In this document: piece after piece, positions 29,596 through 55,245 of the stretch
Position numbering within the stretch: the first letter of the stretch is position 1
Layout of the letters: every line of letters starts with the position of its first letter
Assembly (NCBI GenBank): GCA_965370045.1
Contig: CBDUSI010000004.1
Location: 4,787 to 68,786, forward strand
Direction of reading: 5' to 3'
Length of the DNA: 64,000 bases
Source of the DNA: an uncultured bacterium
GTDB lineage: Bacteria; Planctomycetota; SZUA-567; JAKLDR01
Notes under the pieces: generated by a model
Database searches by the model: none
What the model was told of the DNA's origin: nothing
What the model saw: the letters and a program-made list of their open reading frames with translations, nothing else
Made by a program: the position numbers and the translations under genes

Positions 29596-31368
29596 TCAGT
29601 CACCGGGCGGAAGTCCGGGAAGCTCGCGGGCCAACGTGCCGTCGGCCCGGACCGGCCGGCCGCTGACCCAGGCGCCAGAAACGGTTTCCTCATCATCGAA
29701 ATGCAGGTACATGGTCTGGCTCGGCGCAAAGTCGTAGTAGAAGACGCGCGCCCCGTTCCGGTTCGTGGGCTCGCCTATCAGCTCGATGACCCGGTCCCCG
29801 GTAAGCCGGTGGCGCAGGCATATAGCCCCGACCTGGGCGGCCCTTTCCGGGGAAGAGTCATTCCCGAACCAGTTCTCCAATACCTGGAGCTCGTCCCCGG
29901 TCAGCTTCTCGGGGTTCTGGATTGCGGCCTCCGGCTTTCGAGCTCCCCGCAGCATCATCGGCCCGGTGACCAGCAGGCACAACCATGCCACGGCGCAGGC
30001 GGTCAGCCCGGTCAGCAGCCCGACCTTGAGCCACTCCAGGAAGGTGGCCCGGGTGCGGTAGCGCTTCTCCATCATGCCCAGAGCCACGATGTTGGCGGTG
30101 GAGCCGATCATGGTGATGTTCCCGCCGAAGCAGGCCCCGAAGAGCAGCGCCCACCACAGGGGATGCGGCCCCGAGCCGGCCAGCTGCTTGACCACCGGGA
30201 TGAAGGCGGCCACGAAGACCACGTTGTCCACGAAGGCCGAGCCCAGCGCGGAGACCAGCAGCACCGCGGGGGTCAGCAATTCCGCCCGGCCGCCCACCAG
30301 GTTGGAAAAGCCCGCGGCCATCTCCTTGTTGACGCCCACGCTCTCCAGGGTGCCGGCCACCGCGAAGAGCAGCAGGAAGAAGGTCAGGGTCCACCACTCG
30401 ACCTCGCGTTCGATGTAGTGTCGGGCGCGCTCCCGCCGCCAGATCATCAGCAGCCCCGCGGCGATCAGCGGGGCCATATAGAGCACGGCGTTGGCTTCTT
30501 CCGTCAGGCCCAGCAGCCTCTCCAGGCGGTGGTGGGCGGCGATCAGGCCGAGGGTCCCCAGGATGACGATCAGGCCCTTGCCGTAGGGCACGGTCACGGT
30601 GGGTCCCAGCCCCAGGGCGTGCCGCCGCCGGTGAACCATGCGCTCGGTGAGCTGGTTGATTTCCTTGCGATACCAGAACATCAGCAGCCCGACGGTGGAG
30701 GTCAGCGAGACCAGCATCACCGGGAAAGCCCAGATAATGAAGTCCTCGAAGGTCAAGCCCGCCTTGTCACCGATGAGGATGCCCACCGGGTTGCCCAGCA
30801 TGGTCCCCGCCGAACCCACGTTGGTGGCCATGACGCAAATTATGAGGAACGGAGTGGGCCGCACCTTGAGCGTATCGCAGACCTGGAAGATCAACGCGGC
30901 CATGAACAGGATGCTGGTCACCTCGTCCACCGCGCAGGCGGTCAGCGCCGAGACCAAGGTGGTCACCAGCACGAAACGCGGACCGGTCATGCCCTTCATC
31001 TTGAGAATGCCCTGGATTATCCAGGTGAAGAAACCCAGGTCGCGCAGCACCCCGACCACCACCATCATGCCCACCAGGAACATGATAACCTGCAACGAGC
31101 TGTGGTGCCGGAAACCCTCCAGGGTCAGCGACTTGGTCATCACCAGAGCGGCCAGGCCCAGGAAGGCGATGGCCAGCCGGAAGGTCCAGAAGAACAGCGT
31201 AGAGAGGATGATCACCAGGAAGACCGTGACCGCGGTGGTCTGGGCGGACGACAGACTCCACTGGAAACGGCAGAGAAGCGCCACGGCACCGGCGGCGGCG
31301 GCGATGACCGCCATGCGCAGCAGCATGGCGCGCAGGGGCATCACCTGGCTGTCGGCGTCGGTGGTCAT
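29596..31368 (-). CDS. ArsB/NhaD (SLC13/CitMHS-like) permease with a soluble C-terminal extension
   Basis: Many TM helices, VDEVTSIL, TNVGSAGTMLGNPVGILIG, SAFVDNVVFVA, GACFGGNITMIGSTANIV. Confidence 0.88.
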   Translation of the reverse strand: MTTDADSQVMPLRAMLLRMAVIAAAAGAVALLCRFQWSLSSAQTTAVTVFLVIILSTLFFWTFRLAIAFLGLAALVMTKSLTLEGFRHHSSLQVIMFLVGMMVVVGVLRDLGFFTWIIQGILKMKGMTGPRFVLVTTLVSALTACAVDEVTSILFMAALIFQVCDTLKVRPTPFLIICVMATNVGSAGTMLGNPVGILIGDKAGLTFEDFIIWAFPVMLVSLTSTVGLLMFWYRKEINQLTERMVHRRRHALGLGPTVTVPYGKGLIVILGTLGLIAAHHRLERLLGLTEEANAVLYMAPLIAAGLLMIWRRERARHYIEREVEWWTLTFFLLLFAVAGTLESVGVNKEMAAGFSNLVGGRAELLTPAVLLVSALGSAFVDNVVFVAAFIPVVKQLAGSGPHPLWWALLFGACFGGNITMIGSTANIVALGMMEKRYRTRATFLEWLKVGLLTGLTACAVAWLCLLVTGPMMLRGARKPEAAIQNPEKLTGDELQVLENWFGNDSSPERAAQVGAICLRHRLTGDRVIELIGEPTNRNGARVFYYDFAPSQTMYLHFDDEETVSGAWVSGRPVRADGTLARELPGLPPGD

Positions 31369-31375
31369 CTCTCTC

Positions 31376-32305
31376 CTAAGCGCGCATGACCTTGTTGATG
31401 AAATCCTGCATGGTGATGACCCCCAGCAGCTTGCGGCCGCGGACCACCAGCACCTGGCGGACCTCGCGCTTCATCATCACCTTGGCGACCTGGACTGCGG
31501 GGGTCTTCTCTTCCACGGTGGCGTAGCGGTCGCTCATCATCATGATCTCGACCACCGGGGCTTCCGCCTCGGTCTTGAGCACCTCGGCGAAGGGTTCGAA
31601 GTGCAGGATGGGCGAAAGGTCGTCCATCCAGGTGATGTAATCGGGCAGGCATACCCGCAGGAGCTCGTCCTCGCTGACCACCCCGGCGAGGTCGCCCTCC
31701 TCGTCGATCACCGGGATCTCGCTGATGCTCAGGCGAACGAACTCGTCAATGGCCTTGCGCAGCGGATCACTGGTCCTGAGGCGCGGGTAGCTGCGGTTCA
31801 TCATGTCCCGCGCGGAAACGTAGTCGGAAAGCTGCCCCCCGTTCTGGTCGAAGGCCTTCCAGACCTCCGCTGGCTCCTCCAACGCGGCGAGATGCTCGAC
31901 GATGTCCTGGTGCTGCGAGCAGGCCCGGGCCAGGGCCGCCTGGGCCTGAAGGTAGCCGCCGGGATCCTCGGCGGGAGTGAGGATCAGCACGATCAGCCTG
32001 GCGGGGTGCTCGTCGGGCGTGGGGAAAGTGATGCCCTCGCGGCTGGTGGCCACGGCCACGTGCAGGCCGGGCAGGCCCTCCAGGCGCGCGTGTGGCACCA
32101 CGATGCCCGGCGCCAGCGCGGTGGGGCCCAGCTTCTCGCGCGCCAGCACCAGGCGGTAGGCCTCGCCGATGTCGCTGAGGTCTCCGGTGACGGCAACCAA
32201 CTCCACTAGCCGCTTGATGGCCTCGTCGCGGCCCACGCCGGTAAGGTTACAGATTACCTGTTCGGGACCGAAGAGCGAGGAGAACTTGATACCCTTGTCC
32301 GGCAC
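31376..32305 (-). CDS. PTS EIIA (Ntr/Fru-type) domain fused to a CBS pair
   Basis: LAREKLGPTALAPGIVVPHARL with the conserved His. CBS motifs (IPVIDEEGDLAGVVSEDEL, VLVVRGRKLLGVITMQD). Confidence 0.88.
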   Translation of the reverse strand: MPDKGIKFSSLFGPEQVICNLTGVGRDEAIKRLVELVAVTGDLSDIGEAYRLVLAREKLGPTALAPGIVVPHARLEGLPGLHVAVATSREGITFPTPDEHPARLIVLILTPAEDPGGYLQAQAALARACSQHQDIVEHLAALEEPAEVWKAFDQNGGQLSDYVSARDMMNRSYPRLRTSDPLRKAIDEFVRLSISEIPVIDEEGDLAGVVSEDELLRVCLPDYITWMDDLSPILHFEPFAEVLKTEAEAPVVEIMMMSDRYATVEEKTPAVQVAKVMMKREVRQVLVVRGRKLLGVITMQDFINKVMRA

Positions 32306-32425: not shown

Positions 32426-33169
32426 TCAGGGGGTCTGTGGAGGCGACGTCTCGCTGCCGGACGGCGCCGCGCCCAGCCACTTCATGCGTCCGGCGCCCCG
32501 GTAGATGAAGTATCCGGCGAAGCCGATCAGGAAGATGCCGCAGATGACGATCAGCAGCCGGTAGACGCGGTCTGTCAATAGCCGGCGGCCCCTGGAGACC
32601 GTCCAGGTCACCATCCAGTACCAGAGCAGGTCCGCGGTGATGTGCGCCACGAAGAAGACCGCTATGCCCCGCCAGCCCAGGGTGGCGGCGAGCGTGACGC
32701 AGAAGAGCCCCGTGGTGATCCACCACGCGATCCAGTAGGGATTGGCCAGGCTGACCAGCGCCCCGGAGAGCACCGCACTCGCGGCGGCCAGCCGTCGCCG
32801 GCCGGGCGCGTCCTTGTCCCGGGCCTGGGTGAGGCTCGCCGCGCTGGCCTTTCCGACGCTGCGCAGCATCAAGAACCCCATGGCCAGGAGCATGGCCCCG
32901 CCCACGAAGGCCACCGCCGCGAACGGCACGTCGCGCTTGAGAAACTGGCCCAGCCCCAGGTACACCAGCACCACCACCGTGGCTTCCAGTATCCCGTGCC
33001 CCAGGGTCAAGAGTGGCCCGGCGCGGTGACCCTGGCGAGCACCCTCGCGCACCGCGGCGACCAGCAGGGGCCCGGGCATCAGCGCCCCGGAGAGGGCTAT
33101 CACGAACGAGCCGGCGGCCAGCCCCACCAACCCCGCGGCCTCGACCCAGTTGCTGAGAAAATCGGGCAA
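32426..33169 (-). CDS. LysE-family translocator
   Basis: ALSGALMPGP, GPLLTLGHGILE, SLANPYWIAWW. TTG start after GAGGAG. The 769-aa ORF call includes an antisense shadow upstream. Confidence 0.85.
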   Translation of the reverse strand: MPDFLSNWVEAAGLVGLAAGSFVIALSGALMPGPLLVAAVREGARQGHRAGPLLTLGHGILEATVVVLVYLGLGQFLKRDVPFAAVAFVGGAMLLAMGFLMLRSVGKASAASLTQARDKDAPGRRRLAAASAVLSGALVSLANPYWIAWWITTGLFCVTLAATLGWRGIAVFFVAHITADLLWYWMVTWTVSRGRRLLTDRVYRLLIVICGIFLIGFAGYFIYRGAGRMKWLGAAPSGSETSPPQTP

Positions 33170-33304
33170 GTGTTCTCTCCTCGCGACAATTGTAACCGGG
33201 CGGGGCGGACAAGCGGGGACGTTTTTCCACTGTGGACCGGCCGCGCCGCGCGGCGTAGAATGTGCCCAGCGGGGCGCGGCGCGTCCCCGGAGGAGGAGAG
33301 GCCC

Positions 33305-34603
33305 TTGCCCGGCGAGGACCCCCACAGCGACCGCTTCTACAAGAGCCTGATCAGCGAGATACGCCGCTCGCGGCGGCCGGTGACCATCATGTTCACCGAC
33401 GTGGAGGGCTCCACGCACTACTGGGACGCGCACGGGGACGTCAAGGGCCGGCTGATGGTCGACCTGCACAACCGCCTGATCTGCCCGGTCATCACCCGCT
33501 ACCGTGGCAAGGTGGTCAAGCACGTGGGCGACGCGATCATGGCCTCCTTCACCTCGCCGGGGAACGCGCTCAAGGCAGCCATCGGGATTCAGCAGATTCT
33601 GCACCAGCGCCGCAGCAAGGAGGGCAGCCTGCTCCCCAAGGTGCGCGTCGGCGTGCACACCGGCAAGGCGCTGGTGGAGAGCGATGACGTCTTCGGCGAC
33701 ATGGTCAACGTGGCCGCCAGGGTGGGGGACTACGCCAAGGGCTGCGAGATATGCGTCTCGGGCAGCACCGCCGCCAAAGTGAAGAAGAAGGCCTTCAAGC
33801 TGGCCAAGACCGGATCGTTCCTGCCCAAGGGCAAGCGCAAGCCGATCACCATCTACGAGTGCCAGTGGCGGGCGCACCCCAGCCTGATCGACGACGTGGA
33901 CGAGCGCCGCCCGCTGCCGCTTATCCGCCGGCAGAAGCTGGAGCTCGCCGGCTACTTCCTGGCCGCGATGGGCGTCTTCTATTTTCTGTGCCACCGCTAC
34001 GCGCGCCACCTGGCGCTCGACAACGAACGCCTGGCCGTGCTGGCCCGCAAGCTCTGGGCCGCCAACCTGTCCATATCGCTTGTGCTGGCGGCGGTCGCCG
34101 CCGCGGCCCTGGGCCTCCTGGTCTGGCGAAAAGCGCGTTCCAGCCAGCTTCCTTTTCGCATACTCAAGGGCGGGTTCGGGTTCGCGGTGGCCTTCACCCT
34201 TTTCTACCTGCCGGCCGAGTTCCTGCCCCTGGACATCGGTCCCAAGTGGGACGAGGAGATTGATGGCGCGCGGCACCCCTTCGTCCGCGTCGAGCAGGAC
34301 GAAGTCGGGGTCCACCAGGAGCCAGTGCAGACCTCGCCGACGGTCGGCAGGGCCAACGCGGGCGACATCCTGATTCTCGCGACCGTGGCCGACAAGGGCA
34401 AGCGCAGCTGGTTCAAGGTGCTGCTTGACCGGGACGTGTACGGCTGGATTCCCGAGGAGGTCCCGCCCACGATTGGCGAGCCGGGCCGGCGGCTGGCGAC
34501 CATCACCGAGTTCTCGTTCAAGTACAGGGACCTCTACGCGCTGGCCGCCGGACTGCTGGGCTTCCTGTGGGGCGCGCTGAGCTTCAGAATCCGGCCGGCT
34601 TGA
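33305..34603 (+). CDS. Class III adenylate cyclase with TM helices and a C-terminal SH3b-like domain
   Basis: TIMFTDVEGST, VKHVGDAIMA, RVGVHTG, DVFGDMVNVAAR. TTG start after GGAGGAGGAG (ATG 33260 is an alternative). SH3-like VHQEP...ANAGDILILAT...WFKVLLDRDVYGWIP. Confidence 0.85.
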   Translation: MPGEDPHSDRFYKSLISEIRRSRRPVTIMFTDVEGSTHYWDAHGDVKGRLMVDLHNRLICPVITRYRGKVVKHVGDAIMASFTSPGNALKAAIGIQQILHQRRSKEGSLLPKVRVGVHTGKALVESDDVFGDMVNVAARVGDYAKGCEICVSGSTAAKVKKKAFKLAKTGSFLPKGKRKPITIYECQWRAHPSLIDDVDERRPLPLIRRQKLELAGYFLAAMGVFYFLCHRYARHLALDNERLAVLARKLWAANLSISLVLAAVAAAALGLLVWRKARSSQLPFRILKGGFGFAVAFTLFYLPAEFLPLDIGPKWDEEIDGARHPFVRVEQDEVGVHQEPVQTSPTVGRANAGDILILATVADKGKRSWFKVLLDRDVYGWIPEEVPPTIGEPGRRLATITEFSFKYRDLYALAAGLLGFLWGALSFRIRPA

Positions 34604-34616
34604 GGGGAGAGGGGAC

Positions 34617-35015
34617 TTGAGCAAGTCGCAGCGGTTCGAGTTGATGATCACGATAACTCCGGACCTGCGTACGCTGTTCTCCGCATTCGCGCGCGTGTTG
34701 GGCGTTAAGTTCAAAGAGGAGGAAGTCGCGCACATCTTCGTTGACGCTGAGACAGACCCCGAAGGGTTCGTGGACTCCTCTGAGAAGAGCTATGTATTCT
34801 ATGACAGGGGCAAGCTGGTGGTCAGGGGTGAAGTTGGCGAATATGAACCCGAAACCATAGAACTTGTCATAGAAGGGGCCAAGCGGTTTCACGGCAAGCT
34901 GTCACAGGTCTACAAGGATTTCGAATGGCTCTCAGGAGCCTGCGAACGGTCCGGCGAAGAAAACATGGCGCTCTTCAGGAAGGCAACCGCCGGCATCGTC
35001 GACTGGGATAAGTAA
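34617..35015 (+). CDS. Hypothetical protein
   Basis: 132-aa ORF with TTG start after GAGGGGA. It fills the gap between genes and is visibly more AT-rich. Confidence 0.55.
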   Translation: MSKSQRFELMITITPDLRTLFSAFARVLGVKFKEEEVAHIFVDAETDPEGFVDSSEKSYVFYDRGKLVVRGEVGEYEPETIELVIEGAKRFHGKLSQVYKDFEWLSGACERSGEENMALFRKATAGIVDWDK

Positions 35016-35076: not shown

Positions 35077-36483
35077 TCAGGCGATGATTTCCACCTCGCC
35101 GAGCTCGTACCAGCCATCGTCGGCGCGGCCCTCGTTGGCCAGCAGGACCCGCGGGCGGCGGTCGTGCGGACAGAGCAGCGCGGTGCGCAGCCGGTAGCGG
35201 CCGGGGGCCGCGTCCGGCGGAAGCGGCAGGTCCTTTTCGATGTGCTGATAGCCGGGCAGCCAGCCGGCGGTGCTGGCGGCCAGCTCCAGGACGTGCTCGG
35301 CCTTCTCGCTCTTGAGCCCCAGCGCCGCGGGGTATCCCGCGTACGGCGGGGCCACGCCGCGGTTCTCCCAGGTAGCTTCGACGTGCAGACCCTCACCGGC
35401 GCGCACCTCGGCTGGCCAGACCAGCCGGCGCAGGGCGATGCGGTAGCCCATGTTCCCGAGCAGGCGGTTGATCTGGGGCCAATACTCCTCGGGCACCGCC
35501 GAGGACTTCAGGTTGATCGAGGTCACGTGCCAGCGGAGCGCCTGGTCGACTATGTAATCGATGTCCCAGCCCTCGTCGAACCACTTGCCCATCACCCAGC
35601 AGGTCTCCAGCGAGACCGGGCCGCGCTTCCAGGCCTCCTGCGTCCCGGCGGCGCACAGCGCCTGGTTGTAGAAGTCGAGCATGTGGTTCCACTCGGGGTT
35701 GAAGCCGCCCATGTCTCCCCAGCAGTCCAGCCGCCAGCCGCAGCCCCGCTCGCAGGCGTAGGCCATCCGCGGGTGCTTGGAGATGAGCATGGCCTTGCGG
35801 GTCGTGGGCCAGGCCTCCAGGCAGAGGTCGATGCCTCTCTCCCACAGCTCCGGCGGACCCATGCGGCCGTCCGAGCGGTGCCACTCGCCCCAGTGTCCGA
35901 AGAGGGCCACGTCTATCATGTTGATCCGCGGGTCGCCGTCGTAGCGCTCGCCGATTGCGCGGATCATCCCCCCGAAGTGATCCAGGTAGGCGGGGTCCTC
36001 GTAGTCCGGCAGCCACTTGCCGGCCGCGCCGCCGGGCGGCGGGCCTGAGGGCCCCGCGGACCACTCGTCTATCTGCCGGCCCTTGGCCGTCCCGCCGCGC
36101 CCGACCTTCTCCTTGTACCAGTCGGGGACGGTGACCTCCCCGTTGTGGGGCATGATGCGCAGGTCGAGCTGCTGGCCGCGGGCGGCCGCCGAGCGGCAGG
36201 CGTTCTCGATGATCTCCCAGCGCACGACGCCGGGCTCGGGGTTGAGCGTCGCCCAGTACCAGCGGCAGTAGGCGATGGTGGTCTCCGGGAAGTCCGGGGC
36301 GGGGGCGGGCCGGCAGTCACCGGGCGGCGCGCCGGCATGCGGGAACTCCTCGGGGCCGAACTCTGACCACGTCTGCCCGGGAAAGAGCGGGTCGCCGTTG
36401 AAGCGCTGGAAGGTGGTGAACCCCATGTTGGGGTTCACCAGCAAGTCGTCGATCAGCTTGGGACGGGCCTTGCGCGTATCCAT
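35077..36483 (-). CDS. DUF4832-type putative glycoside hydrolase (GH42-like TIM barrel)
   Basis: LVNPNMGF, YCRWYWATLNPEPG, PDYEDPAYL, RYDGDPR, FGHWGEWH, GWRLDCWGD, LGNMGYRIALR. Confidence 0.75.
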   Translation of the reverse strand: MDTRKARPKLIDDLLVNPNMGFTTFQRFNGDPLFPGQTWSEFGPEEFPHAGAPPGDCRPAPAPDFPETTIAYCRWYWATLNPEPGVVRWEIIENACRSAAARGQQLDLRIMPHNGEVTVPDWYKEKVGRGGTAKGRQIDEWSAGPSGPPPGGAAGKWLPDYEDPAYLDHFGGMIRAIGERYDGDPRINMIDVALFGHWGEWHRSDGRMGPPELWERGIDLCLEAWPTTRKAMLISKHPRMAYACERGCGWRLDCWGDMGGFNPEWNHMLDFYNQALCAAGTQEAWKRGPVSLETCWVMGKWFDEGWDIDYIVDQALRWHVTSINLKSSAVPEEYWPQINRLLGNMGYRIALRRLVWPAEVRAGEGLHVEATWENRGVAPPYAGYPAALGLKSEKAEHVLELAASTAGWLPGYQHIEKDLPLPPDAAPGRYRLRTALLCPHDRRPRVLLANEGRADDGWYELGEVEIIA

Positions 36484-36487
36484 CGCT

Positions 36488-36521
36488 TCAGACTCCCCCT
36501 CAGACTCCCCCTAAACTCCCC
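36488..36521. repeat. 12-nt tandem repeat at a gene junction
   Basis: TCAGACTCCCCC twice, plus TAAACTCCCC. Confidence 0.7.
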
Positions 36522-37239
36522 ACGTCGCCTTGACCAGCAGCCTGATCCCCAGGAGCACCAGCAGCACCAGCATTATCTTGCGGAAGAGCTTGGGATTTAT
36601 GTACCTGTCCAGCAGCAGGCCGGCAGTGATCCCCACGGCCAGCCCGGGCAGCGAGGCCAGGTAGCCCTTGAAGACCTGCGCGGTGAGGTTCCCGTAAATC
36701 GCGTGGGTTATCAATATGACCACGTTGCAGGCCGAGAAAAACCCCTGGAGGTTGGCCTTGAACTCCTCGCGGTCCCACTTGCGGCAGCTCCCGTAGACGA
36801 TTACCGGGGGTCCGTTGGTCGAATAAGCCCCGCCGAGCAGCCCGGCGAGGAAGCCCGCGCCGTACGCCCAGGCGTTGTGCTTGAGCTCGGGCATCTTCGG
36901 CTGCGCCAGGGCGTAAAGGGCGTAGGCCACCAGCACGGCGCCCAGCAGCCCCAAGACCACGTTCTCGTTCATGCGCCTCAGGCCGTAGACGCCGATGGGG
37001 ATGCCGATGAAGGCGGTCAGCGCCAGGCGCCACATCGCGCCCAGCCGCAGGGAGCGCCGGTAGCGAATCAGGAGCACTATCTGCATGGTCCCGGAGGCCA
37101 GGGCCATGAGCGGCGCGGCCTCCCGCGGGCCAACTATGGTCAGCAGGAAGGGCATGGCCACCAGCGCGGAACCGAAGCCGGAGAGGCTCTGCGCAAACGA
37201 ACCGGCCAGCAGGACCAGGGCGATCAGCACGTACTCCAT
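36511..37239 (-). CDS. TauE/SafE sulfite-exporter family membrane protein
   Basis: FAQSLSGFGSALV, GFLAGLLGGAYSTNGPPVI. About 8 TM helices. Confidence 0.88.
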   Translation of the reverse strand: MEYVLIALVLLAGSFAQSLSGFGSALVAMPFLLTIVGPREAAPLMALASGTMQIVLLIRYRRSLRLGAMWRLALTAFIGIPIGVYGLRRMNENVVLGLLGAVLVAYALYALAQPKMPELKHNAWAYGAGFLAGLLGGAYSTNGPPVIVYGSCRKWDREEFKANLQGFFSACNVVILITHAIYGNLTAQVFKGYLASLPGLAVGITAGLLLDRYINPKLFRKIMLVLLVLLGIRLLVKATWGV

Positions 37240-37435
37240 GGGGCCGGGATTCTAGCCGCCGCCGGGCCGCGCGGCAAGCGTGCCGACTGCGCGACGCGCT
37301 CGGCGACCTGGCCGGCGACGAGGATATCCGCATCACCATCGGCAAGTCGGTATAGAGCAGCGCGTTGCTCCTCGAATCGGAACTCCCTGGATCAGAACGT
37401 CCCGCCGTTCTTGACCCACGACTGGGGCCCGCGCC

Positions 37436-37711
37436 TCAGATTTCGCCTTTTCCGCGACCTTCCGGCGGGACAGGGGAGCTTGCTTCGTGGCGGGCCTGCT
37501 CTTCACGCAGCAGCGTGACCAGTTTCTTGAGACGCCAGGCAATCAGCGCGAGCACTCCAAGCACCAGCACCAGCAGAAGCAGGGCGCCGGTCGGAAAGGC
37601 GCGCTCGCGGGGATAGGCCGCCGCCGGGGGCGCCCCGAAGGCATCGGAGCGATACCGTGCCGTGATCGCTCCGCTGGCGTCCGCCCCGGCCGCCTTCGGA
37701 CAACAGATCAC
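37436..37711 (-). CDS. Small membrane protein or C-terminal gene remnant
   Basis: GTGA overlap with the upstream gene. One TM helix (GALLLLVLVLGVLALIAW) followed by RLKK. Confidence 0.35.
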   Translation of the reverse strand: MICCPKAAGADASGAITARYRSDAFGAPPAAAYPRERAFPTGALLLLVLVLGVLALIAWRLKKLVTLLREEQARHEASSPVPPEGRGKGEI

Positions 37712-40227
37712 TCCCAGGTGATCTCAGTCCAGCCTACCCAACTAGGGGATTTTCTGGTGGTTACCCGAACCGCCGCCACCTTTTCCAGCGGAGGGTCAAA
37801 CTTGGCCCGCAACACGACACCGCTTTTGGTCGGACCAGTGAAGGTATGCACGATCTTCTCCGACCCGTCGATGAAGGTGGCCTTTACCTCGTGGATGGTG
37901 TTCCCCGCTGGCTTCTGGCTGACGGTGAGGGCCAGTCCCTTCACCAGGCTGGGTTTCTTGAAGCGAAACTCGATCCAGGCCGGCGGAAGACTTCCCGCGT
38001 TCCAGCCCGTGTGGGGATCGCCGTCGAAAGCGTCTTTCGGGGAACTCAGGGCACTGATGCCACTCGCCTTGACCTCCTTGAGTCCCAGGGCCTTCATGGG
38101 ATCTCGCATGCCCTCTTGAACCAGAATCAACTGAGCGGCCGCGGCGGCCTTCTTGGGGTCATACTTCTCGGGATTCCAGGTGTACATGGCAACGGTGAGG
38201 AGAGTGAACTCGGCATTGCGAGTGGCTTTCCCCCAACGGGTCTCCGCCTTGTTGAGGTTGGCGACGTAGCCTGCAACCTCCTTGTACAACTTGGCTTCCC
38301 GGCCCGAGAGAGGCTGGCGTTTGTTCGCGAAGCGGATGGGGTCATTGTCCCAGAAAAAGGGCTTGCGGCCCGCGGCCTCCCCGCACTTCTTCGCTCCCTC
38401 CGCGGTTACCTTCGGCGAGAATACGCCGCCATCCCCTGTCCAGAACAAAGGCACGTCCCGAGGGAGCTTGGCCTTCACTACCCCAAAGTAGCTCTGCCCG
38501 GCCTCCTTGCTGCAGAAACGGAATCCTTTCTCCGGCAGCCCCCCGTAGGGAATGGGGCACATTATCAGCCGCACGTTCGGATCCAGCTTCCGTAGATACC
38601 GATATACGGCTGCGGTTGCGCCAGCATGTATGTTGGCCGCGGATCGACCCTGCTCTGCGGTCTTGAGACTGGAATCGTCGAAGTTCACAGTGAAGCTCCT
38701 GAAACCCAGCCGGTAGCGCTCATCGTAGTATTTCAAGAGCTTCTCGCGCGAGAGTTTCGACAAAACATCCTTGCGGCCCAGGTGGGCACAATATTCGATG
38801 TGATGGGCTTTGCAGAACTTCTGGACCGCCTTCATCTGCCTCACCACCTTCTCATGGAGACTATCACGGGCGCCCTCTCCCTGGAAGTAGTTGAGCTTGA
38901 AACGCGAGGCCAAGCTGAGCACCCGCAGGACCGACTCGGTCCTGTCGAAGAATATCAGCCCCCGGCGCTTGAAGGCCGGCCAATCCTTGATCTTGACCGC
39001 GCGGACGCGCACTCCGGACCGGTCCTTCAGAGCAAGCTGCCGCAGCGACTGGAGCGCGTAGAACGCCCCGGCCTCGTCGCCGCCAGTGATTTCGATCACC
39101 GCGCCGTTTGTGGCCTTGGAGATGGAGAGCTTGTAGCCCTGCGGACCATTCGCCTCGGATCGCTTGGCGGCCTCCAGGGCCGACCCATGCCGGATCTTGA
39201 TCGTGGAGTAATTCCGGGCCCGCTGCCTGGAAACCACCTTGACGCCCCATTCCCCGGCCACCTTCCCAAGAGTGACCGCCAACCTCTCCGAGGCAGGCCC
39301 AATCAGGACGATCTCCTTGCCGAGCGGCACAAGCTCACTCCCGTAGTGAGCATTCTGCGGCTCGGGAAAGACATGGGGAAGGATGGCTGGCCCTGCGGCT
39401 GGCTTTTTCTCCTTCTCCGCCGCCCAGATGGCCTGCACGGTCGCGGGCACGCCCGCCGAGACCACCACCGCCGCGCCGATCAGCGCCGCGGCTATCTTCA
39501 CTTTCGCCCAGAACATCATTTTTAGTGCTCCTTCCGCCAGGGCCGGAACGCCCGTTCCCGTCGCCCCGGCTGCGGCACCCGCCGCGGCTATCTTCGAGGC
39601 GACCGCCAGGGACGGAAGGAGCGTTGCGGGCACGGCCCCCTGGGCCTCACCCTCCAGCAGCCCGACCAGCATCACCCCACTGAGCACCGAGCCCCGCCCG
39701 GCCAGCCGCTGGCGCAGCCGCTCCAGTCCCCGGCTGGCCCGCTTGGAAAGCGTGCCCTGCGGGCAGCCGGCCAGCCGCGCGGCCTCCTCCTGGCTGCGGT
39801 CCTCCAGGTAGCGGAGGATGACCGCTTGGCGCTGGGGAGCAGGCAGGGAGCCCAGCTCCTGATCGAGCCACTCTAGGGCTCGGTCGCCCTCCGGGCCGAC
39901 CGCCCCCTGCTGCTCGCGGGCCTGAACCATGGCCGCCTCCTTCTCGCGCTTGGCGCGCCTCGACCGAGCCTGGAGAGAGCGCAGCGAGACGTTCCGGGCG
40001 ACGCTGTGCAGCCATGCCGCCAGGTTGACCTCGCGCCGCAGGGAGCGCGCCTTCCGCGCCAGAACCACGAAAACCGCCTGGGAGGCGTCCTCGGCTTCGT
40101 GGGAGTCAGACAGCATGCGCATGCAGATGCGATAGACCATGACCCCGTGCCGGCGAGTCAGCTCGGCAAAGGCGTCCTCGTCTCGCGTGGCCGCGTAGGC
40201 GGCCACCAGCTTCGCATCTGTACGCAT
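37708..40227 (-). CDS. ECF sigma factor fused to TM, GH20b, GH84-like barrel and discoidin (F5/8-type) domains
   Basis: sigma2 DEDAFAELTRRHGVMVYRIC...EAEDASQAVF, sigma4 LPAPQRQAVILRYLE...GTLSKRASRGLERLR. TM near 39420-39500. GH20b FPEPQ...GYKLSI...GAFYALQSL...DWPAFKRRG. GH84-like FDD, CPIPYGG, FWTGDG, FFWDND. Discoidin-like AFDGDPHTGW. Confidence 0.85.
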   Translation of the reverse strand: MRTDAKLVAAYAATRDEDAFAELTRRHGVMVYRICMRMLSDSHEAEDASQAVFVVLARKARSLRREVNLAAWLHSVARNVSLRSLQARSRRAKREKEAAMVQAREQQGAVGPEGDRALEWLDQELGSLPAPQRQAVILRYLEDRSQEEAARLAGCPQGTLSKRASRGLERLRQRLAGRGSVLSGVMLVGLLEGEAQGAVPATLLPSLAVASKIAAAGAAAGATGTGVPALAEGALKMMFWAKVKIAAALIGAAVVVSAGVPATVQAIWAAEKEKKPAAGPAILPHVFPEPQNAHYGSELVPLGKEIVLIGPASERLAVTLGKVAGEWGVKVVSRQRARNYSTIKIRHGSALEAAKRSEANGPQGYKLSISKATNGAVIEITGGDEAGAFYALQSLRQLALKDRSGVRVRAVKIKDWPAFKRRGLIFFDRTESVLRVLSLASRFKLNYFQGEGARDSLHEKVVRQMKAVQKFCKAHHIEYCAHLGRKDVLSKLSREKLLKYYDERYRLGFRSFTVNFDDSSLKTAEQGRSAANIHAGATAAVYRYLRKLDPNVRLIMCPIPYGGLPEKGFRFCSKEAGQSYFGVVKAKLPRDVPLFWTGDGGVFSPKVTAEGAKKCGEAAGRKPFFWDNDPIRFANKRQPLSGREAKLYKEVAGYVANLNKAETRWGKATRNAEFTLLTVAMYTWNPEKYDPKKAAAAAQLILVQEGMRDPMKALGLKEVKASGISALSSPKDAFDGDPHTGWNAGSLPPAWIEFRFKKPSLVKGLALTVSQKPAGNTIHEVKATFIDGSEKIVHTFTGPTKSGVVLRAKFDPPLEKVAAVRVTTRKSPSWVGWTEITWE

Positions 40228-40467
40228 GACCCTTCCAAGCCTACCGGATGCTCTTTCCGTCTACAAGGTGTTCCGCGCGCGGTCCGGATTTGCGCCCCTT
40301 TTTCCGGGAAAACCGCGCCCGGCAAATACGTTTGAATTTGATTGAGCGCCGTGGGCGCTTCGAATCGGCCCCAGCGACAAAATGAGGAGGTCAGATGTCG
40401 GTGACATATTAGCGCCGCATACATTACCGATTCGATACGATATGTGAAGCCCTGTAGCCCGTTGCGT

Positions 40468-53361: not shown

Positions 53362-55245
53362 GTGCTGACGCCACTGGAACCTTACTGGCTGATGGTTGTG
53401 CCCACCCTGGGCACCATGGTGGGGCTGGGCTTCCTGCTCTTCATCCACGAGTTCGGCCACTTCGCGGTGGCCAAGCGCGCGGGGGTTAAGGTCGAGATCT
53501 TCTCCCTGGGCATCGCCCACTTCATCTTTTCCTGGACCTGGAACGGGACGGTCTACGCGTTGAGCTGGCTGCCGCTGGGCGGCTACGTGCGCATGGCCGG
53601 GCAGCAGGACCTGGCTCCTCCGCCTAATCACAAGCCCAAGCCCTGGGAGTACGGCGCCAAGAAGCCCCTGGTGCGCATGGCCATCATCGTCGCCGGGGTG
53701 ACCATGAACTTCATCGGCGGGTGGCTGTGCTACTCGGCCTCGTTCGCGATCGGCCGGGACGTCGACCCGCCCTGGATCGGCAAGTTGGACATCGAGAAAC
53801 CCGGTCACAAAATGGCCCACGACGCGGGTTTCAGGAGCGGCGACAAGGTCCTGGAGGTGAACGGCGACCGGGTCTACACCCGCGTGGGCCTGGACATGCG
53901 CGTGGCCCGCATCACCCCCAAGACGGAGATAGAGCTGCTGGTCGAGCACCGCGACGGCAGGAAAGAGACCGTGCGCGTCAGGACGCTGCCCCGAATGAAG
54001 GGCATCTCGACCCTCACCATCCTCGATCCGGAGCTCATGCCCTGGAAGTGGGAGACCTTACGGGCCGGTTTCACCGCCGAGCCCGTAATGGTCATCACCC
54101 CTCTGCCCGAAGAGCTGGAGAGTAAGGACTTCCGGGAATGGGCCAAGGTCTTCAAGCCGGCGGACATCATCGAGTCCGCCAATGGCAAACGCTGTCGGAG
54201 GCCGGCGGACTTCGACGAGGTGCTTCGGCACTGCGGCGGCCAGCCCATCCGCTTGAAGGTGCTGGGAGTCGACGGGACCAGGCGGGAAGTGCTTCTGGCC
54301 GTCCTGGGAGCGGACCTGATCGGAGTGAAGTTCGCCGCGGCCGAGGGCCCCGCCACTGTAGTGGGACTGGAGCCGGGCTTCCCGGCGGACAAGGCGGGCA
54401 TCAAACCGGGGGACCGGCTCTACCTCGGCAAGGGACGCAAGTCCACTTCGGTTGAAGAGTTCAAGGCGGCGGTGCAGCGGGCCAAGGGTCGGCCCATCGC
54501 CATCACTGCGGTCAGTCCCGGCGGCGAGGAGCGCCTCCTGCGCATCGCCCCCAGAGGCGTGTGGTTCTCCGACCCCGGTGGCAAGCGCATCACATACTAC
54601 AAATCGCCGATGGGCTTCGCGCAGATCGTCAGGAAGGTCGACCCCGACTCGATGGCCGAGCGCAAGGGGCTCAAGCCCGGCGCCATCCTCCGCACGATCG
54701 TGCTGGCGCGCGATCCGGCGGCACCGATATACGCGACCTGGGCCCACAAGGAGGAGGAGTACGGTCCCCATAAACTGGAGCTCCGGGAAGAGGGCTCCTC
54801 GATCACCTGGAGAAAGCGGACCCAGATCAGGCTGGATCTGGGCGTGGGCGAGTCACTGGTTGCCGGCTGGTCGGAGACCACCGAGACGCTGCTGAGCACC
54901 ACGGTCATCCTGCGCAAGGTGATGAACCGCGAGGTCAGCCCCGGGAAGACGCTCTCCGGGCCGATCAGCATCGTGCGCGTGGCCTACCAGTCGGCGCAGA
55001 AGGGCTTCGGGCGGATGCTCTGGCTCCTGGGGCTCATCGGAATCTCGCTGGCTTTCTTCAACCTCCTGCCCATCCCGGTGCTCGACGGCGGGCACCTGGT
55101 ATTCCTGGGCTACGAGGCCATCTTCCACCGGCCGCCGCCGCCCCGCGTGGTGGAGATCGCCCAGTACACGGGACTGATCCTGATACTGTGTCTCTTCGTT
55201 TTCGTGTTCGGCAACGATATCTTCAGGTGGGTACAGGGCAGGTAG
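53362..55245 (+). CDS. rseP: RIP metalloprotease RseP with multiple PDZ domains
   Basis: HEFGH, LPLGGYVRM, AGVTMN, NLLPIPVLDGGH, several PDZ-like segments. Follows dxr. Confidence 0.9.
   Translation: MLTPLEPYWLMVVPTLGTMVGLGFLLFIHEFGHFAVAKRAGVKVEIFSLGIAHFIFSWTWNGTVYALSWLPLGGYVRMAGQQDLAPPPNHKPKPWEYGAKKPLVRMAIIVAGVTMNFIGGWLCYSASFAIGRDVDPPWIGKLDIEKPGHKMAHDAGFRSGDKVLEVNGDRVYTRVGLDMRVARITPKTEIELLVEHRDGRKETVRVRTLPRMKGISTLTILDPELMPWKWETLRAGFTAEPVMVITPLPEELESKDFREWAKVFKPADIIESANGKRCRRPADFDEVLRHCGGQPIRLKVLGVDGTRREVLLAVLGADLIGVKFAAAEGPATVVGLEPGFPADKAGIKPGDRLYLGKGRKSTSVEEFKAAVQRAKGRPIAITAVSPGGEERLLRIAPRGVWFSDPGGKRITYYKSPMGFAQIVRKVDPDSMAERKGLKPGAILRTIVLARDPAAPIYATWAHKEEEYGPHKLELREEGSSITWRKRTQIRLDLGVGESLVAGWSETTETLLSTTVILRKVMNREVSPGKTLSGPISIVRVAYQSAQKGFGRMLWLLGLIGISLAFFNLLPIPVLDGGHLVFLGYEAIFHRPPPPRVVEIAQYTGLILILCLFVFVFGNDIFRWVQGR

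What the first reader, a model, noticed from the sequence alone, without database searches (positions are those of the whole stretch)
37708..40227. ECF sigma factor fused through a membrane helix to a GH20b-GH84-like-discoidin module
Seen: a cytoplasmic sigma domain, one TM, then an extracytoplasmic GH20b domain, a barrel with the adjacent catalytic Asp-Asp (FDD, 38674-38682) and GH84-like CPxxY, WTGDG and WDN motifs, and a discoidin domain. The GH84 N-terminal EGFYG and PKDD motifs are not recognisable. Established: planctomycetes have ECFs with membrane-anchored C-terminal extensions. Inference: a one-component glycan sensor in which a divergent beta-N-acetylglucosaminidase or binding domain controls release of the sigma factor, possibly by an RseP-type protease.
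Basis: partly seen in the sequence, partly recalled or inferred. Interest (0 to 1): 0.7.

Follow-up and report, generated by a model that had tools for sequence, protein, structure and literature searches.

The report
Membrane-tethered sigma factor with hexosaminidase-like sensor
One gene of an uncultured planctomycete joins a transcription (ECF sigma) factor, through a membrane helix, to a complete exported GH84-type sugar-cleaving enzyme module; it is a one-off member of a large family of such "plug-in" sensors, and it probably also makes a second, sigma-less exported protein from a conserved internal start.

Summary
A single 839-aa ORF on the minus strand (37708-40227) encodes ECF sigma regions 2 and 4, a conserved 55-aa linker and one TM helix. 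These are followed by a GH20b domain, a GH84-like barrel and a discoidin/CBM32-like domain. The ectodomain model (pLDDT 88) matches solved GH84 enzymes (Foldseek E 1e-32 to 1e-25).

The barrel belongs to a distinct, otherwise secreted GH84-like clade. That clade keeps the catalytic Asp-Asp and most -1 subsite residues but has replaced three canonical sugar-binding positions.

No other sigma fusion to this module turned up in any database searched. The sigma-linker-TM cassette itself is a known planctomycete theme: 24 paralogues in this genome and 20-21 in close relatives. Their ectodomains are unrelated and include GH123 (three) and CE15 (two).

New here is a Shine-Dalgarno site plus ATG, selected at the nucleotide level, just before the TM. 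It predicts a sigma-less, signal-peptide-bearing twin of the ectodomain.

Most likely mechanism (inferred): the tethered sigma is released by regulated proteolysis, with an SPase-like site after the TM and an RseP homologue 13 kb away. Release would follow sensing of an N-acetylhexosamine glycan.

This is a new variant of a known kind, of moderate interest.

The parts
37708..40227 (-). Whole ORF, 839 aa (P0001): ECF sigma, linker, TM, GH20b, GH84-like barrel, discoidin-like domain
39955..40158 (-). Sigma-70 region 2 (residues 24-91)
   Evidence: Pfam PF04542, 48 bits. TIGR02937 sigma70-ECF, 86.8 bits against a cut-off of 42.9.
39709..39873 (-). Sigma-70 region 4 (residues 119-173)
   Evidence: Pfam PF08281 and PF04545.
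39520..39696 (-). Conserved cytoplasmic linker (residues 178-236). The model shows two helices, 184-195 and 203-217. Candidate in-cis anti-sigma or protease-recognition segment.
   Evidence: It is as conserved across 43 family members as the sigma domains. Helices are from the AF2 model. No Pfam or zinc-finger match.
39528..39534 (-). Internal Shine-Dalgarno site GAAGGAG, inside codons E232-G233-A234
   Evidence: Sequence. It lies in a run of five rare A-ending codons, P about 5e-6. GAAGGA encodes E-G at this site in 13 of 22 genes, against 1 of 82 E-G pairs elsewhere in the same genes. An SD core is present at 22 of 33 sites against 9.9+-2.5 by synonymous resampling.
39514..39519 (-). Internal start candidates ATG ATG (M237, M238), 8 nt after the SD
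   Evidence: Met is conserved in 19 of 24 paralogues and is nearly invariant in the 43-sequence family alignment.
39424..39516 (-). TM helix / signal-anchor (residues 238-268), with n-, h- and c-regions like a Sec signal peptide
   Evidence: Kyte-Doolittle maximum at 245-263. Long helix 227-273 in the model.
39421..39438 (-). VQAIWA (residues 264-269): AxA-type signal-peptidase-like site at the outer end of the TM. Paralogues carry similar A/V-x-A-type motifs (AVRA, AVKA, AVHA) at the same place.
   Evidence: Paralogue alignment. Whether it is cleaved is inferred.
38980..39378 (-). GH20b-type N-terminal domain of the hexosaminidase module (residues 284-416)
   Evidence: PF02838, 59 bits. AF2 and Foldseek.
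38092..38979 (-). GH84-like (beta/alpha)8 barrel (residues 417-712)
   Evidence: PF07555, 95 bits. BtGH84 phmmer E 8e-20. Foldseek hits to GH84 structures at E 1e-32 to 1e-25, TM about 0.6.
38674..38679 (-). Asp517-Asp518, aligned with the catalytic pair D242/D243 of BtGH84
   Evidence: Invariant in all 35 clade and canonical sequences compared.
37723..38049 (-). Discoidin / F5/8 type C (CBM32-like) beta-sandwich (residues 727-835)
   Evidence: PF00754, 27.8 bits against a cut-off of 28.2. Beta-sandwich at ectodomain residues 481-569 of the model. 51% identical to the C-terminal domain of clade member P0072, 54% to the sigma-TM-discoidin protein P0112.
53362..55245 (+). RseP-type site-2 protease homologue (M50 with an insert), 627 aa. 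Candidate releasing protease; not adjacent to the gene.
   Evidence: PF02163 matches of 97 and 89 bits at G000:C4:58202-59977, which equals window 53416-55191.

Best explanation
The gene is a genuine single-polypeptide signalling protein of the planctomycete 'ECF sigma - conserved linker - TM helix - variable ectodomain' family.

Its cassette has replaced the signal peptide of a complete secreted GH20b / GH84-like / CBM32-like hexosaminidase module. Homology to the secreted relatives starts at residue ~277, just where their mature chains begin.

In the full-length product the sigma domain is held at the inner face of the membrane. It is probably also masked by the conserved 55-aa linker. The GH84-like module faces the periplasm.

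That module keeps the substrate-assisted catalytic pair (D517/D518) and the Tyr, Trp-x-Asn, Thr-Gly-Asp and Asn of the -1 subsite. It has exchanged three canonical sugar-hydroxyl and acetamido contacts:
- Y137 is lost.
- K166 is lost, and an Arg one residue later is common in the clade.
- D344 is replaced by Phe/Trp.

It therefore most likely recognises, and may cleave, a modified or different N-acetylhexosamine glycan rather than plain O-GlcNAc.

Occupancy of the module is proposed to license regulated proteolysis. Site 1 would be cleavage at the conserved AxA-type site just outside the TM helix. Site 2 would be cleavage by an RseP-type protease, after which the sigma factor is free to bind RNA polymerase. 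This is how IutY works, and how the RsgI/SigI polysaccharide sensors work.

A conserved internal Shine-Dalgarno site and ATG directly before the TM helix probably also yield a 603-aa sigma-less product with a signal-peptide-like N-terminus. That product would be the exported enzyme, or a decoy or partner of the sensor.

Shown: architecture, fold, clade membership, residue conservation, uniqueness of the fusion, the paralogue array, and nucleotide-level selection on the internal SD.
Inferred: topology, ligand, catalysis, both proteolytic steps, the second product and the regulon.
For: - Domain calls.
- Ectodomain model has pLDDT 88.2. Its Foldseek hits are all GH84 enzymes, the top one being the GH84+CBM32 tandem 2v5d at 6e-32.
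- Active-site table over 26 clade members and canonical GH84: D242, D243, Y282 and N339 are invariant. C278 (C/T/V), the T310-G-D motif and W337 are kept in nearly all, and N372 in all. EGFYG and K166 are absent, an Arg at position 167 is common, and position 344 is Phe/Trp in nearly all.
- Clade relatives are secreted proteins without a sigma domain. Several have the same GH20b-GH84-F5/8C order.
- The sigma-linker-TM cassette is 50-64% identical to about 200 Planctomycetota proteins with unrelated ectodomains. Conservation of linker and juxtamembrane motif equals that of the sigma domains and collapses after residue ~265.
- Copy number: 24 in this genome, 20-21 in three relatives.
- Other ectodomains in this genome include GH123 (three), CE15 (two), weak GH88-like (two) and PQQ propellers.
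- Internal SD/ATG.
- An RseP homologue lies in the window, and three further M50 proteins are in the genome.
- In the N-terminal model, sigma2 and sigma4 superpose better on anti-sigma-bound ECFs (rmsd 8-12 A) than on holoenzyme-bound ones (~27 A). This is weak evidence, since pTM is 0.55.
- Precedents: IutY (PMC5411451; PMC8999054 section 3.5.3) and the RsgI6 GH10 sensor (PMC4711584).
Against: - No experiment of any kind bears on this protein.
- The fusion is a singleton. No orthologue was found in 60 relatives, in 80 named-genome loci holding the module, or in two large protein databases. Purifying selection on the fusion as such therefore cannot be shown.
- No recognised anti-sigma domain (ZAS, FecR, RskA, RsgI_N) is detected in the linker.
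- No ECF-type autoregulated promoter or obvious target operon was found. The downstream permease gene has its own sigma-70-like promoter.
- This genome holds no second GH84 gene that could be a regulated enzyme.
- Three canonical substrate contacts are missing, so activity on GlcNAc substrates may be nil.
- The signal-peptide-like TM with an AxA site could equally mean constitutive cleavage.
Confidence: 0.55

Rival explanations
1. Evolutionary by-product. A duplicated sigma-linker-TM cassette landed in front of a gene for a secreted GH84-like enzyme, the 'fortuitous insertion' route of Pinto & da Fonseca. The working product is the exported enzyme made from the internal start. The full-length protein is either inert or cleaved constitutively, with no glycan-dependent signalling.
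For: - The fusion is a singleton.
- The catalytic pair and clade-specific residues are intact, as expected for a working enzyme.
- There is a strong internal SD+ATG and a signal-peptide-like TM with an AxA site.
- It is the only GH84-type gene in the genome.
- A published model exists for such insertions (PMC7671368).
- Ectodomain GC3 (0.78) is lower than that of the cassette (0.86) and of neighbouring genes (0.91-0.94).
Against: - The internal SD, ATG and signal-anchor belong to the conserved cassette, not to the captured gene. They are shared by paralogues with unrelated ectodomains.
- The junction sits exactly where the mature secreted enzyme begins. This is the cassette's usual junction, pointing to a recurrent and selected design.
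- 20-24 intact copies per genome in four genomes argue that full-length products are useful.
Confidence: 0.22
2. Pseudo-enzyme sensor. The GH84-like barrel no longer hydrolyses anything and serves only as a carbohydrate-binding receptor, as described for the GH10 domain of RsgI6. There is no enzymatic role for either product.
For: - Canonical contacts Y137, K166 and D344 are lost.
- The NCBIfam GlcNAcase equivalog score is far below its cut-off (82.6 against 1000).
- RsgI6-GH10 has very low activity but binds xylan and cellulose (PMC4711584).
- One paralogue in this genome (alpha/beta-hydrolase ectodomain, contig C1) has GHGLGG in place of the nucleophile-Ser elbow (sequence).
Against: - D242/D243 are invariant through the whole clade, most of whose members are free secreted proteins with no signalling part. 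A pure lectin would not need both acids.
- The replacements (Arg common at 167, Phe/Trp at 344) are shared across the clade rather than random, as expected for changed specificity.
Confidence: 0.18
3. Assembly chimera. The MAG contig wrongly joins a sigma-TM gene to an unrelated hexosaminidase gene.
For: - Only one contig carries the gene.
- It comes from a metagenome-assembled genome with 210 contigs.
Against: - The frame is open across 2520 nt.
- The join falls precisely between the end of the conserved cassette and the first residue of the mature module, with a short Lys/Pro linker. A random mis-join would rarely do this.
- Identical architecture logic is seen in 23 other genes of the same genome.
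Confidence: 0.03

Closest known systems
Planctomycete ECF sigma factors with heterogeneous C-terminal extensions (Pinto & da Fonseca 2020, PMC7671368)
   Same: The sigma2/sigma4 regions are highly conserved. The C-terminal parts are unrelated among recent paralogues and carry diverse Pfam domains. There are many copies per genome, and nothing has been tested experimentally.
   Different: - That paper treats the extension as whatever lay downstream of a randomly inserted sigma copy. Here the mobile unit is larger: sigma, a conserved linker, an internal SD/ATG and a signal-anchor. The junction is always just outside the membrane.
- A GH84-like ectodomain was not found fused to a sigma factor anywhere else.
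IutY of Pseudomonas putida (ECF243 sigma/anti-sigma hybrid; PMC5411451, PMC8999054)
   Same: One polypeptide carries a cytoplasmic ECF sigma, one TM helix and a periplasmic part. It is the only characterised case in which such a protein is activated by sequential proteolysis (Prc, then RseP).
   Different: - IutY carries a FecR-type anti-sigma/periplasmic domain and receives its signal from a TonB-dependent receptor.
- Here there is no FecR domain. The periplasmic part is itself a large enzyme-fold module that could bind the signal directly.
ECF52/ECF53 of Actinobacteria (e.g. SCO4117; PMC5826349, PMC10766802)
   Same: An ECF sigma is fused through TM helices to an extracytoplasmic carbohydrate-binding domain, or in some members a predicted glycosyl-hydrolase domain. 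Release by proteolysis is proposed.
   Different: - They have a zinc-finger (ZAS) anti-sigma domain and a Pro-rich spacer, and are confined to Actinobacteria.
- None of these features is present here. The sigma core belongs to a planctomycete group.
RsgI6/SigI6 of Clostridium thermocellum (PMC4711584, PMC10328401)
   Same: A glycoside-hydrolase-family domain (GH10) on the outside of the membrane acts as polysaccharide sensor for an alternative sigma factor. RseP is the intramembrane protease.
   Different: - Sigma and anti-sigma are separate proteins.
- The sigma factor is SigI-type, not ECF.
- Site-1 is autoproteolysis in a conserved periplasmic domain that is absent here.
Bacterial GH84 beta-N-acetylglucosaminidases (BtGH84/BT_4395, C. 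perfringens NagJ with CBM32)
   Same: The order is the same: GH20b-type N-domain, (beta/alpha)8 barrel, then a CBM32-type domain. The catalytic Asp-Asp, Y282, W337, N339 and N372 are conserved, and Foldseek gives TM about 0.6.
   Different: - About 20-23% identity.
- EGFYG (Y137), K166 and D344 are replaced.
- It falls in a separate clade found in Planctomycetales, Kiritimatiellota and Chloroflexota MAGs.

Membership tests
ECF (group 4) sigma-70 factors | Sigma regions 2 and 4 only, no region 3 or 1.1 | tested here: met
   PF04542 and PF08281/PF04545 are the only sigma domains found. TIGR02937 scores 86.8 bits against a cut-off of 42.9. Foldseek of the N-terminal model hits ECF sigmas only.
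Planctomycete sigma-linker-TM-ectodomain fusion family | Conserved linker, LAEGxxKAMFWxKVK juxtamembrane motif and single TM after sigma4; unrelated ectodomain after it | tested here: met
   50-64% identity over residues 1-270 to about 200 proteins. Conservation profile. Paralogue alignment.
Glycoside hydrolase family 84 | Pfam NAGidase domain above its gathering score, and the GH84 fold | tested here: met
   95.2 bits against 25. Foldseek E down to 6e-32 against GH84 structures.
Glycoside hydrolase family 84 | Adjacent catalytic Asp-Asp (D242/D243 of BtGH84) | tested here: met
   D517/D518 are aligned with them.
Glycoside hydrolase family 84 | Canonical -1 subsite contacts Y137 (EGFYG), K166 (GPKDD) and D344 | tested here: not met
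   All three are replaced: a gap or 'FFDRT', 'GEGARD', and Phe. The NCBIfam GlcNAcase equivalog scores 82.6 against a cut-off of 1000. It is therefore filed as GH84-like, not as an O-GlcNAcase/NagJ orthologue.
Glycoside hydrolase family 84 | beta-N-acetylglucosaminidase activity | not testable with these tools
   Needs an enzyme assay.
CBM32 / F5/8 type C discoidin domain | PF00754 match and beta-sandwich fold | tested here: inconclusive
   27.8 bits against a cut-off of 28.2. The AF2 beta-sandwich has pLDDT about 90. The best Foldseek hit contains CBM32, but the domain was not searched separately.
IutY-type / FecR-type sigma/anti-sigma hybrids (ECF243) | FecR-like anti-sigma and periplasmic domain | tested here: not met
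   No FecR or other anti-sigma Pfam hit at E<=1.
ECF52/ECF53 | Zinc-finger (zf-HC2) anti-sigma domain between sigma4 and the TM; actinobacterial | tested here: not met
   No zf-HC2 hit. The linker 178-236 contains no Cys or His. Relatives are Planctomycetota.
Regulated intramembrane proteolysis substrates (RseA/RsiV/IutY-like) | Signal-dependent site-1 cleavage followed by RseP cleavage | not testable with these tools
   Only the prerequisites are seen: a single TM, an AxA-type site and an RseP homologue.

The most novel reading that the evidence does not exclude
The cassette is a two-in-one device. Every gene of this family would make both a membrane-tethered sigma-sensor and, from the conserved internal SD/ATG, a sigma-less exported twin of the same ectodomain. 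For this gene the twin would be a secreted GH84-like hexosaminidase. The twin could act as enzyme, decoy or dimer partner that sets the sensor's threshold. One ORF would then encode a complete self-calibrating glycan-sensing circuit. The organism would run an array of about 24 such circuits, at least six of them built on carbohydrate-active enzyme folds (GH84-like, GH123, CE15).
Probability: 0.3. Interest if true: 0.8.

Novelty: new variant of a known kind. Interest (0 to 1): 0.55.

Why it matters
How planctomycetes couple their large repertoires of polysaccharide-degrading enzymes to gene expression is essentially unknown. They lack the Bacteroidota SusR/HTCS and anti-sigma/TonB logic.

This gene shows an entire hexosaminidase module, catalytic residues included, wired directly to a sigma factor. 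The same chassis in the same genome carries GH123 and CE15 modules. That makes a concrete, testable model: enzyme folds used as receptors for an array of membrane-tethered sigma factors.

The internal start site, which is under selection at the DNA level, adds a mechanism not described in the ECF literature I could search. It also refines the published 'fortuitous insertion' model. The mobile unit includes its own ribosome-binding site, start codon and signal-anchor.

The GH84-like clade, with Arg common at position 167 and Phe/Trp at 344, is also a candidate for a new hexosaminidase specificity.

Tried and rejected
1. Orthologues of the fusion were sought four ways. None had a sigma part.
   - 60 relatives.
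   - 1.84 billion representative proteins.
   - The 5.8-billion-protein word index, twice.
   - 185k species genomes.
2. Synteny was checked around the neighbouring HcyBio gene in two family-level relatives. Only HcyBio itself is shared, so the time of acquisition could not be fixed. The DUF4832 neighbour has no match in relatives.
3. A shared ECF-type promoter was sought upstream of the 24 paralogues. Enriched words were a housekeeping-type -10 (TAGAAT) and the SD GGAAGGG, not a GGAAC..CGTC-type motif. For this gene no sigma-70-like promoter was picked up upstream. The regulon stays unknown.
4. GH5 genes lie beside two secreted clade members, but this genome has no homologue of them. The idea of a linked enzyme pair was dropped.
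5. The duplex-energy measure for the internal SD was only weakly discriminating. The Glu-Gly motif gives G-rich codons in any case. Codon-choice and SD-core tests were used instead.
6. The ORF 36500-37345 (281 aa) is an off-frame artefact. The real gene there is a TSUP/TauE-like permease at 36511-37239.
7. Whether discoidin identity says the domain came from a sigma-TM-discoidin ancestor (P0112) or with the GH84 module is undecidable. Identities are 54% against 51%.
9. The supplement of the ECF reclassification paper is not held. The ECF group number of this sigma core could not be assigned.
10. Model coordinates are not exposed. Docking of the linker on the sigma domains and the pocket geometry could not be measured.


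Full report
**1. Observation**

The stated interval holds one open reading frame of 839 codons on the minus strand, ATG to TGA. Pfam finds these domains:
- Sigma70_r2, residues 24-91.
- Sigma70_r4_2 / r4, residues 119-173.
- Glyco_hydro_20b, residues 284-416, 59 bits.
- NAGidase (GH84), residues 456-712, 95 bits.
- F5_F8_type_C, residues 727-835, 27.8 bits, which is 0.4 bit below the gathering score.

NCBIfam confirms an ECF-type sigma: TIGR02937 scores 86.8 bits against a cut-off of 42.9. The GlcNAcase equivalog scores far below its cut-off, 82.6 against 1000.

A single hydrophobic stretch peaks at residues 245-263. The only addition is the strand.

**2. The ectodomain is a GH84-fold module of a distinct clade**

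An AlphaFold2 model of residues 270-839, built on 18 homologues, has mean pLDDT 88.2 and pTM 0.78. Foldseek against the PDB returns only GH84 enzymes at the top:
- C. perfringens NagJ with its CBM32, 2v5d, 6e-32.
- CpGH84B.
- BtGH84.
- TM-scores are about 0.6 over about 450 columns.

phmmer aligns D517-D518 with the catalytic D242-D243 of BtGH84.

A search of 1.84 billion representative proteins found 39 proteins at E<=1e-30. Some of these match only the C-terminal discoidin-like domain. I aligned about 26 of the closest relatives with canonical GH84 sequences and read out the BtGH84 active-site positions.

All sequences compared keep D242, D243, Y282, N339 and N372. C278 (Cys/Thr/Val), the T310-G-D motif and W337 are kept in nearly all.

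The close clade, including the window's protein, differs consistently:
- It lacks EGFYG (Y137).
- It lacks K166 of GPKDD, and most members have an Arg one residue later.
- It has Phe or Trp where D344 sits in nearly all members.

Because these replacements are shared across the clade, this is changed specificity or a changed binding mode, not decay.

Every other clade member starts with a signal peptide or lipoprotein-like N-terminus and has no sigma part. Several have the same GH20b-GH84-F5/8C order: P0072, P0220, P0221, P0075 and P0078. Named genomes holding the clade are uncultured Planctomycetales/Planctomycetaceae, a Tichowtungia (Kiritimatiellota) MAG and Chloroflexia/Limnocylindrales MAGs.

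Homology of the window's protein to these relatives begins at about residue 277 (GPAILPHVFPEPQNAHYGSELVPLG). In P0072 that point follows directly on the signal peptide. The sigma cassette has therefore taken the place of the enzyme's own signal peptide.

**3. The N-terminal 270 residues are a reusable cassette**

Residues 1-270 are 50-64% identical to about 200 proteins, where named from Planctomycetota. Their C-terminal parts are unrelated:
- beta-helix/NosD-like
- WD40
- HEAT
- TPR
- BNR-sialidase-like
- serpin
- FGE-sulfatase
- LptA-like
- Kelch
- many with no Pfam match

A 43-sequence alignment shows three things:
- The linker (181-220) and the juxtamembrane motif LAEGxxKAMFWxKVK (231-250) are as conserved as the sigma domains, with a top-residue frequency of 0.57-0.67.
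- Conservation falls to 0.35 after residue ~260.
- Occupancy falls after ~275.

The window's own genome is a 4.46-Mb MAG, 88% complete. It has 24 open frames with this cassette. Three relatives of the same family have 20, 20 and 21. Another family of the class has 0-10, and a third has almost none, one match in one genome.

I scanned the ectodomains of 20 paralogues:
- Three carry GH123 N-terminal and catalytic domains.
- Two carry CE15 glucuronoyl-esterase-like domains. One of these has GHGLGG where the nucleophile Ser elbow should be (sequence).
- Two tandem genes carry weak GH88/(alpha/alpha)6-like matches.
- Two carry PQQ propellers.
- The rest have no hit.

No relative has the GH84-like module at all. 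The closest cassette, in G002 (64%, which is P0005), carries an unrelated ectodomain.

This pattern was described for Planctomycetes by Pinto & da Fonseca (PMC7671368): conserved sigma regions, unrelated extensions, recent duplications. They proposed that a duplicated sigma copy lands by chance in front of other sequence.

**4. A conserved internal ribosome-binding site and start codon**

Prompted by a note of an earlier agent on another genome, I read the DNA in front of the TM helix.

It is CTG GCG GAA GGA GCA CTA AAA ATG ATG. That gives AAGGAG, an 8-nt A-rich spacer, and then two ATGs at M237 and M238.

The five codons before the ATG all end in A, in a region with 87% GC3. Their usage in these genes is 27, 13, 7, 1.4 and 15%, a product of 5e-6. 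It is the longest run of A/T-ending codons in the gene.

The aligned Met is present in 19 of 24 paralogues. It is nearly invariant in the 43-sequence family alignment.

In 14 cassettes fetched from three related genomes, the string gcGGAAGGAG is almost invariant at the DNA level.

Pooling 33 sites:
- An AGGAG/GGAGG core lies at -24 to -4 in 22. Synonymous resampling that keeps the protein sequence gives 9.9+-2.5, and 0 of 5000 resamples reach 22.
- Glu-Gly is encoded GAAGGA at 13 of 22 sites. Elsewhere in the same genes it is 1 of 82.

A/T at third positions is also enriched: 32 against 20+-4 in this genome, and 29 against 11.7+-3.1 in relatives.

True 5' starts of the paralogues use the same GGAAGGG-type SD.

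Paralogues are not independent. However, at 40-60% protein identity their synonymous sites are long saturated, so this is selection on the nucleotide sequence.

The product from M237 would begin MMFWAKVKIAAALIGAAVVVSAGVPATVQAIWA/AEKEKK. It has a basic n-region, a hydrophobic core, a Gly/Pro-containing c-region and an AxA-type site. In form it is a Sec signal peptide. Paralogues carry similar A/V-x-A-type motifs (AVRA, AVKA, AVHA) at that place.

Two conclusions follow:
- The mobile unit contains sigma, linker, SD, ATG and signal-anchor.
- This gene probably also yields a sigma-less exported GH84-like protein of 603 aa before any cleavage.

This part is inference from sequence. No translation data were available.

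**5. How it most likely works**

Shown:
- The architecture.
- The fold.
- The conserved catalytic pair.
- The cassette family.
- The internal SD.

Inferred: the rest, as follows.

The full-length protein inserts with the sigma domain inside and the enzyme module outside.

The sigma part is kept inactive by the tether and probably by the conserved linker. In the N-terminal model (pLDDT 81, pTM 0.55) the linker forms two helices, 184-195 and 203-217, before the long TM helix. In that model sigma2 and sigma4 superpose on ECF sigmas taken from anti-sigma complexes (SigW/RsiW, SigE/RseA, CnrH/CnrY) at rmsd 8-12 A. They superpose on holoenzyme-bound sigmas at about 27 A. This is weak support for a closed, self-inhibited state.

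Activation would follow the only route demonstrated for a fused sigma/anti-sigma protein, IutY (PMC5411451; PMC8999054 section 3.5.3):
1. Trimming or cleavage outside the membrane.
2. RseP cleavage in the membrane.

An RseP-type M50 protease with the usual insert is encoded at 53362-55245 in the window, and three more M50 proteins are in the genome. The AxA site makes signal peptidase a candidate site-1 enzyme. From my own knowledge this is as in B. subtilis RsiV; I did not check it in a paper here.

There is experimental precedent for a glycoside-hydrolase fold as the receptor of an alternative sigma system. It is RsgI6 of C. thermocellum, whose GH10 domain binds xylan and cellulose with very low activity (PMC4711584).

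The ligand is most likely a glycan with a terminal or internal N-acetylhexosamine. The acetamido-polarising Asp and the pocket residues are kept. The changed O3/O4/O6 contacts (Arg, Phe) suggest a substituted or charged sugar. That last step is speculation.

The presence of GH123 (beta-N-acetylgalactosaminidase family), CE15 and GH88-like modules on sister cassettes fits an organism that monitors amino-sugar/uronic-acid polymers. This too is inference.

**6. What remains open**

- The regulon is unknown. No ECF-type promoter motif emerged upstream of the paralogues. The enriched words were a TAGAAT -10 and the SD.
- The downstream TSUP permease (36511-37239) has its own TTGCCG-17-TAGAAT promoter.
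- Upstream lies a divergent homocysteine-biosynthesis gene.
- There is no second GH84 gene in the genome.
- Synteny with relatives is absent.
- The fusion is a singleton, so selection on the fusion itself cannot be shown. A neutral or constitutive fusion remains a serious rival (0.22).
- An assembly chimera is unlikely given the exact, family-typical junction.

**7. Comparison and novelty**

It works like IutY, ECF52/53 and RsgI systems but is a member of none. It lacks the FecR domain, the zinc finger and RsgI_N.

It is a member of the planctomycete ECF-with-extension group already described computationally (PMC7671368). ECF-GH fusions have been predicted in Actinobacteria (PMC10766802).

New here:
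- The GH84-like module as ectodomain, unique in all collections searched.
- The co-occurrence of several carbohydrate-active-enzyme ectodomains on the same chassis in one genome.
- The definition of the cassette boundary.
- The nucleotide-level evidence for an internal start.

I rate it a new variant of a known kind, interest 0.55.

Noticed in passing
window 53362-55245 (+): RseP-type M50 site-2 protease homologue, 627 aa, with the M50 domain split by an insert. It lies 13 kb from the finding.
   Followed up: partly
window 37436-37711 (-): A 91-codon ORF whose GTG start overlaps the stop of the sigma-GH84 gene (GTGA). It encodes one TM helix (ALLLLVLVLGVLALIAW) and has coding-like GC by codon position (0.75/0.56/0.74). 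There is no paralogue in the genome. It is unclear whether it is real.
   Followed up: partly
G000 contigs C28:38876-42413, C69:729-4230, C16:24669-28272 (loci L019, L021, L023): Three paralogous sigma-linker-TM proteins whose ectodomains carry GH123 (beta-N-acetylgalactosaminidase family) N-terminal and catalytic domains. Whether their catalytic Asp-Glu is kept was not determined.
   Followed up: partly
G000 contigs C11:11585-13604 (L025) and C1:67023-68849 (L018): Two paralogues with CE15 glucuronoyl-esterase-like ectodomains. L025 keeps a GHSRG elbow. L018 has GHGLGG, so it lacks the nucleophile Ser and is probably a pseudo-esterase receptor.
   Followed up: partly
G000 contig C52:2828-7735 (L022, L027): Two tandem cassette genes with nearly identical TM and juxtamembrane parts and weak GH88/(alpha/alpha)6-like ectodomains. 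This looks like a recent tandem duplication.
   Followed up: no
protein P0112 (460 aa, from the representative library): A minimal ECF sigma-TM-discoidin protein from another metagenome. Its discoidin domain is 54% identical to the C-terminal domain here. This small domain also serves as sole ectodomain of a sigma fusion.
   Followed up: partly
loci L040 (9480-10610) and L041 (11300-12499): In two unrelated contigs a GH5 (PF00150) gene lies next to, or 1.5 kb from, a secreted member of the GH84-like clade. This may hint at the natural substrate. There is no GH5 homologue in the window's genome.
   Followed up: partly
window 40228-40300 (-) and 5' leaders of paralogues on C185, C113, C66, C11, C76: The about 45 nt before the start codon are alignable between this gene and its closest paralogue. 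Several leaders share a GACGGA(A/G)GGG-like element. The duplicated unit therefore seems to include the 5' leader.
   Followed up: no
window 32426-34735 (-): A 769-aa ORF in which only the last 200 residues match LysE. The 540-residue N-terminal part has no Pfam match, and the start may be miscalled.
   Followed up: no
window 31376-32305 (-): A PTS EIIA-2 domain fused to a CBS pair, next to a CitMHS-type transporter gene (29596-31368).
   Followed up: no
window 35077-36483 (-): DUF4832-containing protein without an obvious signal peptide. It has no homologue in three close relatives at E<=1e-30.
   Followed up: partly
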